IMG/VR virus record: IMGVR_UViG_2802429249_000004
Coordinates: 1-15,411 of that record
Length of the DNA stretch: 15,411 nt
From: a virus
Lineage: Duplodnaviria > Heunggongvirae > Uroviricota > Caudoviricetes
Reading direction: 5' to 3' (one strand)
A program made the position numbers and the translations under genes. Shown piece after piece: positions 8,338 through 9,152 of this stretch (positions are counted from its first letter, which is position 1; every line of letters starts with the position of its first letter). The notes beneath the pieces were generated by a model, which did not search any database, was not told where the DNA came from, and saw only the letters and a list, made by a program, of their open reading frames with translations.

Positions 8338-8868
8338 ATGACTAAGCTGACCATTAACAGAAAACCAAAAGGTATTTACGGCACGCCGCAGAAAACGACG
8401 CAGGCGGCGCAGCAGCAGGATAAAACCACATCGGCGCATAAAGTGATGCCCGGTAACCAGAAAGCGCAGCAGAAGCCCACAGGGGCAACACCGTGGCGGC
8501 ATATGACCAAACGGCAGCGAAAAAACCGCAGACGCGTTAACCGCCTCACTGAGTTGTGGCCTGAATTATTCAGCCGGGAAGCACCGAAGCCGCTTAAGGT
8601 GGGGATATTCGACGACCTGATGCAGGATCTCGCCGTCAGGGGGCTGGCATTCGGGCCAGGGGCATTGCGTGCGACGCTGGCATCTTATGCGCAGTGTCCG
8701 CGCTATTACCGCGCCTTAATGGCTGGTGGGGTACGCTACGACCTGAAATGCCAGCCGTGCGGCGAGGTGACACCACAGGAACAACAGGACGCAGAAACGC
8801 GGCTGGTTGCGCTGAATGAGAAACGCAAACGTCAGCGTCGGGCAGCAAAGGAGAAAACAGGCGCATGA
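8338..8868 (+). CDS. ProQ/FinO-domain RNA-binding protein (RNA chaperone family)
   Basis: Segment LTELWPELFSREAPKPLKVGIFDDLMQDL...LRATLASYAQCPRYYRALMAGGVRYDLKCQPCGEV aligns by memory with E. coli ProQ N-terminal domain (FP.CF...PLKIGIFQDL...[35 protein letters not shown]). Low-complexity Q/K/T-rich N-terminus and basic C-tail. Start is 8338 (GGGG 6 nt upstream) or 8326. Confidence 0.8.
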   Translation: MTKLTINRKPKGIYGTPQKTTQAAQQQDKTTSAHKVMPGNQKAQQKPTGATPWRHMTKRQRKNRRRVNRLTELWPELFSREAPKPLKVGIFDDLMQDLAVRGLAFGPGALRATLASYAQCPRYYRALMAGGVRYDLKCQPCGEVTPQEQQDAETRLVALNEKRKRQRRAAKEKTGA

Positions 8869-9152
8869 TTCACGACAGCAAAGCGGAAGCTCTGGAAGCG
8901 CGTGGTCTGTACCGGAGAGCGGCGGCGCGGTGGGCTGAGGTCATCATGCTGGCGAATGATGACAAGGCACGGGAACAGGCGGCAAAACGTCGCGCGGAAT
9001 GTATCCACAAGGCAGCACGCCCACCAGCAAGGCAGGATAATTTCGGGGAGATGCGCAAAACCATCAGCCGGGCACATGCCGGGATGGGATTACATCAGCC
9101 CAATGGTGAGGCATTCAGGAAATACCAAAAAAAGAACAATTGTAGTCAGTAA
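8865..9152 (+). CDS. PerC-family transcriptional regulator-like protein
   Basis: N-terminus MIHDSKAEALEARGLYRRAAARWAEVIM matches the PerC/Pch family N-terminal signature (..D..AE.LE..GL.RRAA.RW..). Start overlaps the upstream stop (ATGA). Confidence 0.65.
   Translation: MIHDSKAEALEARGLYRRAAARWAEVIMLANDDKAREQAAKRRAECIHKAARPPARQDNFGEMRKTISRAHAGMGLHQPNGEAFRKYQKKNNCSQ

What the first reader, a model, noticed from the sequence alone, without database searches (positions are those of the whole stretch)
8338..9152. Mobile-element-encoded ProQ/FinO-domain RNA chaperone coupled to a PerC-like regulator
Seen: the ProQ/FinO N-terminal domain is clear by eye (PLKVGIFDDL...RYDLKCQPCGEV), with an unusual Q/K/T-rich N-extension and a basic tail; the next gene, with an overlapped ATGA junction, begins with a PerC-like signature. 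Established: FinO-family proteins protect and anneal specific RNAs, and PerC/Pch homologs on prophages activate host virulence regulons. Inference: the element may post-transcriptionally reprogram host or helper-phage RNAs, and the pair could function as a unit.
Basis: partly seen in the sequence, partly recalled or inferred. Interest (0 to 1): 0.55.

Follow-up and report, generated by a model that had tools for sequence, protein, structure and literature searches.

The report
Satellite-island FinO-like RNA binder plus PerC
Two overlapping genes on an E. coli phage-satellite island (PICI) encode a FinO-type RNA-binding protein and a small PerC-type regulator; both are already annotated as such, the pairing is common but not obligatory, and what the RNA binder does in satellites is still unstudied.

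Summary
Window 8338-8868 encodes a 176-aa ProQ/FinO-domain protein (PF04352, E=2.9e-22). Its predicted fold matches FinO, RocC and NMB1681. Window 8865-9152 encodes a 95-aa PerC-family protein (PF06069, E=3.8e-32). The two genes overlap by ATGA. RefSeq already names both genes this way in near-identical E. coli chromosomes.

The element is an EcCICFT073-type phage-inducible chromosomal island (PICI) at tRNA-Thr. It runs integrase, AlpA, AntA, Icd-like, DUF4222, primase-helicase, then an iteron origin. The pair starts about 20 bp after the last iteron.

In relatives from E. coli, Salmonella and Citrobacter the same slot holds SSB, ProQ/FinO and PerC in varying combinations. EcCICFT073 has PerC without ProQ. 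Capsid-forming PICIs have ProQ without PerC. Where both occur, their alleles are shuffled. They are therefore co-expressed neighbours, not an obligate unit.

Island-type proQ-like genes occur in at least 1176 of 5426 complete E. coli genomes and never on plasmids there. The literature held here lists them but never studies them. The PerC is closest to PchE; PICI PerC homologues were reported inactive or repressive on LEE1.

Most likely mechanism (inferred): a FinO/FopA-like binder of terminator-type RNA hairpins in the island's replication or early module. No RNA partner was found. Interest is moderate.

The parts
1..1215 (+). P4-type tyrosine integrase at the left end of the island
   Evidence: NCBIfam NF007246 integrase domain, E=6e-96. 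In the 99.8%-identical copy it lies 166 bp from tRNA-Thr beside proA.
2208..2453 (+). AlpA-type helix-turn-helix regulator. The ORF is given as listed; the annotated gene in relatives is 65 aa, so the true start is probably internal.
   Evidence: ORF. The homologous gene is annotated as an HTH regulator and hits PF05930 Phage_AlpA in related loci.
5862..6152 (+). DUF4222 gene, overlapping the primase start by GTGA
   Evidence: PF13973, E=7.7e-18. It lies directly upstream of the primase in essentially all related loci where that stretch is present.
6149..7954 (+). Primase-helicase (pri-rep) of the island
   Evidence: PF08706 D5_N, PF19263 DUF5906 and PF03288 Pox_D5. TIGR01613 P4-family primase C-terminal region, E=2e-27, 95.8 bits, below its 108.7-bit cut-off.
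7955..8337 (.). Putative replication origin: GGTAGACAGT iterons in both orientations flanking an AT-rich core
   Evidence: Nine of the 10 window matches to GGTAGACAGT (up to 1 mismatch) lie in 7982-8318; 0.39 expected by chance. Repeat map. GC is 32-35%. The organisation matches that described for Gram-negative PICI origins (PMC6092414).
8338..8868 (+). ProQ/FinO-domain protein, 176 aa: disordered conserved N-extension (1-57), FinO domain (about 58-145), basic C-terminal helix
   Evidence: PF04352, E=2.9e-22. PDB sequence hits. AlphaFold2 model. Foldseek to FinO, RocC and NMB1681. dN/dS 0.1-0.3.
8865..9152 (+). PerC-family protein, 95 aa, with an ATGA overlap onto the preceding gene and an AAGGAG Shine-Dalgarno-like sequence 11 nt upstream
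   Evidence: PF06069, E=3.8e-32. Sequence. 89% identical to a protein named PchE. Three-helix N-terminal domain in the model.
9287..10429 (+). Lipoprotein-like gene of unknown function, probably the last gene of the same transcription unit
   Evidence: The signal/lipobox-like N-terminus ends in ...LTGC. It follows PerC in 18 or more related loci and in Citrobacter.
10441..10463 (+). First strong intrinsic-terminator-like hairpin downstream of the pair
   Evidence: 10-bp stem followed by a T-rich tail (TATATATT). Fold -14.5 kcal/mol, z=-2.8, reached by 0 of 200 shuffles. The hairpin directly after perC is not better than shuffles (z=-0.44).

Best explanation
The two genes belong to the module just after the origin of an EcCICFT073-type phage-inducible chromosomal island (PICI) integrated at tRNA-Thr.

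Shown: the first gene encodes a FinO-domain protein of an island-specific clade. It has a constrained, disordered N-extension carrying a basic Trp-containing stretch, a canonical FinO core and a basic C-terminal helix. It has no ProQ-type Tudor domain.

Inferred: it binds RNA hairpins with a 3' tail, the intrinsic-terminator type, through the conserved 3'-nucleotide pocket (Gly89, Tyr123, Arg133) and the helix N-terminus (Arg111). It then acts as plasmid FinO and FopA do. It would protect a particular small or antisense RNA of the island or its helper phage and speed its pairing with a target mRNA. That would tune island replication or the satellite-helper cycle rather than host physiology in general.

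Shown: the second gene encodes a small PerC/PchE-like regulator and overlaps the first by 4 nt.

Inferred: both genes, together with the downstream lipoprotein gene, are made from one mRNA.

Shown: the two genes assort and diverge independently. They are neighbours in a shared expression slot, not a two-part machine.
For: Identity of both proteins.

RNA-contact residues, mapped through the ProQ alignment:
- G89 = ProQ G37, R111 = R58, Y123 = Y70, R133 = R80, K87 = K35.
- G89, R133 and K87 are invariant, Y123 is nearly invariant, and R111 is kept in 16 of the 19 aligned subfamily members.
- The equivalents in RocC (G52, R75, Y87, R97) contact the terminator and are needed for function (PMC9674577).

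Purifying selection acts on both the domain and the N-extension.

PICI identity:
- Gene order int, alpA, antA, icd-like, DUF4222, primase, iteron origin.
- This matches EcCICFT073 gene for gene and the published PICI description (PMC6092414).

Fixed position:
- In all 90 or so related loci ProQ lies directly after primase, origin and (where present) SSB, and before the packaging or accessory genes.
- This holds across classical, EcCIMP1-like and capsid-forming PICIs, and in Salmonella and Citrobacter.

Link to replication modules in other FinO proteins:
- FopA acts on the Inc/repZ replication-control RNAs (PMC7491321).
- The closest plasmid relative sits beside Rop on a small plasmid.
- Vibrio satellite-plasmids carry repA, parA and a ProQ/FinO-like gene (PMC13230959).

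Separability of the pair.
Against: - No RNA partner was found. The window has no Rfam match at E<=1 other than two chance-level hits.
- C4/isrK immunity RNAs occur in only 2 of the 10 PICI loci scanned (nine ProQ-bearing plus EcCICFT073).
- The best candidate small RNA on the opposite strand (about 3346-3459) is also conserved in EcCICFT073, which lacks ProQ.
- Antisense terminator-like sites inside the gene fold no better than shuffles.
- The helix N-cap serine of the family is glycine here, and the neighbouring lysine is proline. RNA affinity or specificity may therefore differ. RocC K71D and K73D lost about 12-fold in binding.
- No expression data exist, and no convincing promoter was seen between the last iteron and the start codon.
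- A global, host-directed role like that of ProQ is not excluded.
Confidence: 0.55

Rival explanations
1. Host-directed accessory pair. The FinO-like protein competes with or supplements chromosomal ProQ on host RNAs, while PerC changes host transcription. Together they alter host physiology or virulence as lysogenic-conversion cargo.
For: - PICI papers treat PerC and ProQ as accessory or virulence-associated genes (PMC13612085; PMC6092414).
- EcCIMP1's PerC-like protein represses LEE1 in Citrobacter rodentium (PMC11773190).
- In EPEC the effect of chromosomal ProQ on ler is reported to run through plasmid PerC (cited second-hand in PMC12426089).
- The pair is 60% GC against 32-42% in its flanks, as expected of an imported cassette.
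- The O157:H7 PICI carries the same trio next to further PerC genes.
Against: - The gene occupies a fixed place inside the replication/early block, not the variable cargo ends where defence genes sit.
- It is retained in capsid-forming PICIs, where it lies immediately upstream of the capsid genes.
- The PerC homologues of EcCICFT073 and EcCIEDL933 had no effect on LEE1.
- If most carriers lack the LEE island (not tested here), a LEE-directed role could not explain conservation of the pair.
Confidence: 0.2
2. Obligate two-component unit. The ProQ-like protein and PerC work only together, for example by forming a complex or because the RNA binder controls perC mRNA.
For: - PerC lies immediately downstream of ProQ in 8 of 13 ProQ clusters (4-nt overlap in seven), and PerC is adjacent in 10 of 13.
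- Adjacency is kept in Salmonella and Citrobacter and in O157:H7.
- The adjacency survives allele replacement on either side.
- The PerC model is a TPR-like helical domain with no recognisable DNA-binding fold, so a protein partner is plausible.
Against: - Each gene occurs without the other in otherwise syntenic islands.
- The gene order is inverted in one lineage.
- Divergence of the two is nearly uncorrelated.
- PerC homologues are far more widespread than this ProQ clade, for example in Klebsiella, Enterobacter and phages.
Confidence: 0.12
3. Replication accessory acting on nucleic-acid structures at the origin together with SSB, for example on primer RNA or hairpins, rather than on a regulatory small RNA.
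For: The gene lies immediately after the iteron origin and usually directly after an island-encoded SSB, about 36 nt apart.
Against: - No FinO-domain protein is known to act this way. This rests on established knowledge of the family; the review is PMC9977716.
- Many islands, including this window, have the gene without SSB.
- EcCICFT073's pri-ori segment drives plasmid replication, and that island carries no ProQ gene (PMC6092414).
Confidence: 0.08

Closest known systems
FinO (F-like plasmids) and FopA (IncI1 pCol1B9), the FinO-domain RNA chaperones of mobile elements
   Same: - FinO-domain core with conserved 3'-end pocket residues.
- Small size with an N-terminal extension and a basic C-terminal helix, and no Tudor domain.
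- Encoded by a mobile element and, like FopA, placed next to the replication functions.
   Different: - Only 35% identical to FinO over the domain. It scores far below NCBIfam's FinO cut-off, 61 bits against 136.
- The N-extension shows no significant similarity to that of FinO (E=7).
- It is carried on integrated phage satellites and never on plasmids in 5426 E. coli genomes.
- No FinP/traJ or Inc/repZ-like antisense pair is recognisable.
- FopA itself was not compared by sequence.
Chromosomal ProQ of E. coli and Salmonella
   Same: The N-terminal FinO domain aligns over about 105 residues, E=8.6e-11. The key residues R58, Y70, R80, G37 and K35 are conserved.
   Different: - No linker or Tudor-like C-terminal domain.
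- Scores 53 bits against the 127-bit equivalog cut-off.
- The N-cap Ser53-Lys54 is replaced by Gly-Pro.
- It is accessory and multi-copy, up to 9 copies per genome.
PerC of EPEC and the Pch proteins of EHEC
   Same: Full-length PF06069 match. The invariant core D-x-KAE-x-LE-x-GLYRRAA-x-R is shared with homologues.
   Different: - Closest to a protein named PchE (89%) rather than PchABC (62%).
- The PICI-borne homologues tested so far do not activate LEE1, or they repress it (PMC11773190).
- There is no solved structure, and the model gives no significant fold match.
EcCICFT073, the prototype Gram-negative PICI
   Same: Same backbone: int, alpA, ylcI/ynfO (opposite strand), icd-like, small ORFs, DUF4222, primase, origin, PerC. 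The origin has iterons around an AT-rich core.
   Different: - EcCICFT073 has a hypothetical gene, SSB and PerC after the origin and no ProQ gene.
- It carries capsid and decoration genes and RppA. This window instead has a lipoprotein-like gene, a TerS-like HTH protein and a defence cassette.
- It has a different integration site, next to roxA rather than tRNA-Thr.

Membership tests
ProQ/FinO domain family (PF04352) | Profile match above the curated threshold | tested here: met
   79.1 bits against a cut-off of 27, E=2.9e-22, profile positions 5-108 of 109.
ProQ/FinO domain family (PF04352) | FinO-domain fold | tested here: met
   AlphaFold2 pLDDT above 90 over residues 60-160. Foldseek top 26 hits are all FinO-domain structures: target-normalised TM 0.61-0.84, rmsd 2.0-4.9 A (about 2.0-2.4 A for FinO 1dvo and most RocC chains), probability 1.00.
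ProQ/FinO domain family (PF04352) | 3'-nucleotide pocket residues (RocC Gly52, Tyr87, Arg97 = ProQ Gly37, Tyr70, Arg80) | tested here: met
   Gly89, Tyr123 and Arg133 align to them and are invariant or nearly so in 19 subfamily members. Their role is described in PMC9674577.
ProQ/FinO domain family (PF04352) | Helix N-cap motif (RocC Ser70, Lys71, Arg75) | tested here: inconclusive
   The Arg is kept (Arg111). The cap Ser is Gly106, nearly invariant in the subfamily, and the Lys is Pro107. Gly can cap helices, so the effect on RNA binding is unknown.
ProQ/FinO domain family (PF04352) | Binds structured RNA (hairpin with a 3' tail) | not testable with these tools
   Needs EMSA or CLIP.
ProQ proper (NCBIfam NF003434 equivalog) | Score above the equivalog cut-off, and a linker plus Tudor-like C-terminal domain | tested here: not met
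   53.4 bits against a cut-off of 127. The protein ends about 30 residues after the domain.
FinO proper (NCBIfam NF010317) | Score above the cut-off, and an F-like tra/FinP context | tested here: not met
   61.1 bits against a cut-off of 136. Chromosomal island context with no tra genes. No plasmid copies in E. coli.
FopA-like (plasmid/phage FinO-domain proteins) | Sequence membership in the FopA branch, and an Inc-type antisense RNA target | not tested
   No FopA sequence was retrieved. The only resemblance is placement next to a replication module.
PerC family (PF06069) | Profile match above the curated threshold over the full length | tested here: met
   110.8 bits against a cut-off of 22.6, positions 1-89 of 90. 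The invariant core motif is shared with 24 homologues.
PerC/PchABC LEE activators | Activates the LEE1 (ler) promoter | not testable with these tools
   89% identical to a protein named PchE and 62% to one named PchABC family. The literature reports PICI homologues as inactive or repressive.
Gram-negative PICI (EcCICFT073 type) | [quoted passage not shown] | tested here: met
   Synteny with EcCICFT073. Criteria from PMC6092414. The right end of the island lies outside the window.
Gram-negative PICI (EcCICFT073 type) | Induction, replication and packaging dependent on a helper phage | not testable with these tools
   Needs an experiment. A TerS-like HTH protein at 11615-12160 is the only packaging-related hint.

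The most novel reading that the evidence does not exclude
The island-specific FinO clade is the dedicated chaperone of a still-unseen antisense or small-RNA circuit. That circuit would set satellite replication or the timing of helper exploitation. One possibility is control of the translationally coupled DUF4222-primase operon, in the manner of Inc/repZ with FopA or CopA/tap-repA. Another is stabilising or sequestering a helper-phage regulatory RNA. Phage satellites would then have an RNA-level control layer, present in about one fifth of complete E. coli genomes, that has so far been overlooked.
Probability: 0.2. Interest if true: 0.7.

Novelty: new member of a known kind. Interest (0 to 1): 0.4.

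Why it matters
FinO-domain proteins are treated as three or four model cases: FinO, FopA, ProQ and RocC. This clade is chromosomal, satellite-borne and multi-copy. It is present in at least 22% of complete E. coli genomes, including O157:H7. It keeps a fixed place next to the satellite origin across three PICI types. None of the PICI or FinO papers held here examines it.

If it has a specific RNA partner, two things follow. It would give a compact new system for studying how FinO domains choose targets. It would also add post-transcriptional control to satellite-helper biology.

For annotation, the result warns against reading 'PerC' on such islands as a virulence activator.

Tried and rejected
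1. Homology of the N-extension to FinO's N-terminal region (LT[IL]xRK, PxW). MAFFT lines them up, but BLASTP gives E=7. Treated as an architectural resemblance only.
2. Rfam scan of the window at E<=1. It returned only two chance-level hits (Plastid-psbM, HOLDH) and no C4, isrK or other small RNA. C4+isrK were found in only 2 of 10 related loci.
3. Candidate small RNA on the minus strand. Promoter-like site 3459-3431 plus a strong terminator 3381-3356 (z=-2.2). It is conserved in EcCICFT073, which lacks ProQ, so it is not a ProQ-specific partner.
4. Antisense terminator-like sites inside the ProQ gene (8546-8530, 8390-8377) and the hairpin right after perC. Their folding is no better than shuffles.
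5. The conserved hairpin at the start of DUF4222 as a ProQ-linked element. It is also present in EcCICFT073.
6. PerC fold search against the PDB. Nothing below E=1, only generic TPR-like helical matches. PerC also has no sequence match in the PDB.
7. The genome-contig scan returned a single locus (E. ruysiae) because the derived pattern was narrow. Context was taken instead from IMG/VR, the look-up of encoding contigs and RefSeq E. coli.
8. The 181-aa HTH protein as an RppC homologue. No PDB sequence match, only a weak TerS-like N-terminus.
9. Porter et al. 2005 (PMC543544) could not be read. Its result is cited second-hand from PMC11773190.
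Full report
**The observation**

It matches Pfam PF04352 (ProQ/FinO) at E=2.9e-22, 79 bits against a cut-off of 27. The match covers nearly the whole profile.

By sequence it hits the solved FinO-domain proteins: ProQ-NTD 5nb9, FinO 1dvo, NMB1681 3mw6 and RocC 7rgt/7rgu. An AlphaFold2 model built on 19 subfamily members is confident over residues 55-170 and disordered over 1-50. Its 26 best Foldseek matches in the PDB are all FinO-domain structures, with target-normalised TM of 0.61-0.84 (best for RocC).

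The next ORF, 8865-9152, matches PF06069 (PerC) end to end at E=3.8e-32. Its ATG overlaps the upstream TGA as ATGA. PGAP uses the same coordinates and the same two names in E. coli E189, which is 99.8% identical over 1.2 kb.

**What the element is**

The window opens with a P4-type tyrosine integrase. In E189 that gene lies 166 bp from tRNA-Thr next to proA. Then follow:
- an AlpA-type regulator and an AntA antirepressor;
- a short opposite-strand ylcI/ynfO block;
- an icd-like gene and small ORFs;
- DUF4222 and a D5_N/DUF5906/P4-type primase-helicase.

Next comes a 383-bp AT-rich stretch. It holds nine of the window's ten matches to GGTAGACAGT, where 0.39 are expected by chance, in both orientations around an AT-rich core. 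This is the organisation published for Gram-negative phage-inducible chromosomal islands (PMC6092414). The prototype EcCICFT073 shows the same gene order. EcCIMP1, a PICI shown experimentally to be mobilised by a helper phage, lies between proA and yagU, the same neighbourhood as this island (PMC11773190).

**Where the pair sits**

The ProQ-like start codon lies about 20 bp after the last iteron. I collected 79 loci from IMG/VR. I added loci from the look-up of encoding contigs and from RefSeq E. coli, then typed their ORFs with phmmer.

Wherever the upstream flank is present in a locus (a few contigs are cut at or just before the gene), the ProQ-like gene lies directly after the primase and origin, usually after an island-encoded SSB, and before whatever comes next. 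At 90% identity the proteins fall into 13 clusters:
- In eight clusters PerC follows immediately; the 4-nt overlap is called in seven, and in the eighth a longer overlap was called.
- In one cluster PerC precedes ProQ.
- In one cluster a 138-aa ORF intervenes and only a PerC remnant is left. This is the EcCIMP1-like type, with large P22-like ejection-protein genes.
- In three clusters there is no PerC. An 82-aa ORF is followed by HK97-type capsid, protease and portal genes, so these are capsid-forming PICIs.

Salmonella and Citrobacter islands carry SSB, ProQ and PerC. So does an O157:H7 PICI, whose ProQ-like protein is 138 aa and lacks residues 1-45. EcCICFT073 has SSB and PerC without ProQ.

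**Are the two genes a unit?**

Adjacency is frequent and the overlap implies co-expression. Three findings argue against an obligate unit. Each gene exists without the other in syntenic islands. Their order can invert. Where both are present, their identities to the window copies are barely correlated (Spearman 0.33, p=0.06). Combinations such as ProQ 94%/PerC 58% and ProQ 87%/PerC 99% occur. Both genes are under purifying selection, with dN/dS of about 0.1-0.3 (one closely related PerC pair gave 0.77 at dS 0.06). I read them as separately exchangeable modules that share one expression slot.

**The FinO-like protein**

I mapped residues through the ProQ alignment. The pocket that holds the 3'-terminal nucleotide in the RocC-RocR complex is intact: G89, Y123 and R133. 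The N-cap arginine, R111, is present in this protein and in 16 of the 19 aligned members. These residues are needed for RocC function (PMC9674577).

The subfamily differs at the helix cap. The family's Ser-Lys is Gly-Pro here, and Gly106 is nearly invariant. This may alter affinity or tail-length preference.

The N-extension is predicted disordered, yet it is as constrained as the domain. Its C-terminal part (PW-HMTKRQRKNRRR-NRL) is conserved even in the short O157 form. Any similarity to FinO's N-terminus is not significant.

The protein fails the NCBIfam equivalog thresholds for both ProQ and FinO and lacks ProQ's C-terminal domain. The closest plasmid relatives are only about 43% identical over the domain. 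One of them lies beside rop on a small plasmid.

A full HMMER scan of 1.84 billion representatives finds only 7 clusters at E<=1e-30, so this is a narrow clade. Within E. coli it is common. At least 1176 of 5426 complete genomes carry it, with up to 9 copies, all on chromosomes.

**The PerC-like protein**

It is 89% identical to a 54-aa protein named PchE and 62% to one named PchABC family. PMC11773190 gives two relevant results. Citing Porter 2005, it reports that the PerC-like genes of EcCIEDL933 and EcCICFT073 do not affect LEE1. Its own experiments show that EcCIMP1's homologue represses LEE1.

The model is a three-helix N-terminal domain with no significant match in the PDB and no recognisable helix-turn-helix. 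Near-identical copies of the pair were recovered from horse, chicken, pig and human isolates, and PerC-bearing relatives occur in Salmonella and Citrobacter. I did not test whether those hosts carry LEE; if, as I expect from general knowledge, most do not, the conserved role of PICI PerC proteins is not LEE activation.

**Mechanism**

The shown parts are the fold, the conserved RNA-contact residues, purifying selection, the fixed position after the origin and the co-directional overlap with perC.

The inferred part is the function. I infer that the protein binds terminator-type hairpins and serves a specific island or helper RNA, as FinO and FopA do for their elements. The placement beside the replication module parallels FopA-Inc/repZ. 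It also parallels the ProQ/FinO-like genes listed with repA and parA on Vibrio satellite-plasmids.

I could not find the RNA:
- Rfam is empty for the window.
- C4/isrK occur in only a few relatives.
- The best small-RNA candidate, and a strikingly conserved hairpin at the start of DUF4222, are both present in EcCICFT073, which lacks ProQ.

A host-directed role remains a live rival. One weak pointer is the second-hand report that chromosomal ProQ acts on ler through PerC in EPEC.

**Comparison and novelty**

Both families are known, both genes are annotated, and PICIs are known to carry PerC. ProQ/FinO genes on satellites are listed in two recent papers without study (PMC13612085; PMC13230959). 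A 2017 survey lists a 'pathogen-specific' ProQ/FinO cluster.

What this analysis adds is threefold. The gene belongs to a distinct island-only clade. It has a fixed syntenic position across PICI types and genera. It is separable from PerC. That makes it a new member of a known kind, of moderate interest.

Noticed in passing
window 7955-8337: Putative island replication origin. About 14 full or degenerate copies of GGTAGACAGT lie in both orientations on either side of an AT-rich core (8100-8160). Nine of the ten window matches fall here, where 0.39 are expected by chance. The ProQ-like start codon lies about 20 bp after the last iteron, so its promoter must lie within the origin or upstream of it.
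   Followed up: yes
window 5878-5893 (codons 6-11 of DUF4222); also L093 10962-10977: An invariant hairpin, CTGGC-N6-GCCAG, sits at the start of DUF4222, the gene translationally coupled to the primase. Gly7 is GGC and Ala10 is GCC in 30 of 30 distinct sequences, while other Gly codons vary at the third position. The loop has 6 variants. This points to a constraint at the nucleotide level: an RNA or DNA structure, or a protein-binding palindrome. On the minus strand it reads as a weak terminator ending over the start codon. It is also present in EcCICFT073, so it is not tied to ProQ.
   Followed up: partly
window 11615-12160 (+): A 181-aa protein whose N-terminus resembles the helix-turn-helix of small terminase subunits (phrog_57, E=6e-7; HTH_17, E=1e-4). 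It may redirect helper packaging as Rpp proteins do. It has no sequence match to any PDB chain, RppC included.
   Followed up: partly
window 13425-15411 (+): Defence-type cargo at the right side of the island. A DUF262/GmrSD_N protein matches PADLOC NsnA (E=7e-65) and is followed by a RiboL-PSP-type HEPN protein that runs off the window. The otherwise near-identical island in E. coli E189 (L001) carries a different cassette at this place: methyltransferase, DUF262 and HEPN.
   Followed up: partly
window 1246-2154 (+): A 302-aa ORF of 28-33% GC lies between the integrase and alpA. It has no match in Pfam, PHROGs or PADLOC. Its composition stands out from the island (45-55% GC around it), as expected of a second cargo slot.
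   Followed up: no
window 3346-3459 (-) and 3636-3655 (-): A promoter-like site (TTCACT-17-TATAAT, the best in the window) lies about 75 nt upstream of a strong terminator hairpin (9 GC-rich pairs; z=-2.2) on the strand opposite to almost all genes, just beyond the end of antA. It may be a small RNA, or simply the terminator of the ylcI/ynfO transcript. It is conserved in 58 of 95 loci, including EcCICFT073.
   Followed up: partly
window 4350-4500: Divergent control region between ylcI/ynfO (-) and the icd-like operon (+). It has two direct repeats of CTGAATCACA and a stable hairpin in the + strand leader (-23.6 kcal/mol, z=-2.6). It is probably the switch region of the island.
   Followed up: no
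window 3325-4863 (+): The 512-aa ORF listed here is almost certainly not a gene. It runs through the region where related genomes annotate two minus-strand genes and the icd-like gene, and it has no family match.
   Followed up: no
L099 (E. coli O157:H7 PA2) 6033-9063: The O157:H7 PICI carries a hypothetical gene, SSB, ProQ/FinO (138 aa, 56% identical, no N-terminal 45 residues) and PerC, followed by two more PerC-family genes. EHEC strains used in ProQ studies therefore carry a second, island-borne FinO-domain protein next to PerC-family (pch-type) genes.
   Followed up: partly
L042 3957-4142; L060 2732-2917: Some ProQ-bearing PICIs carry isrK plus C4 (P4 CI-type immunity RNA) upstream of the replication genes, at 75-80 bits. 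The window and most relatives do not.
   Followed up: partly
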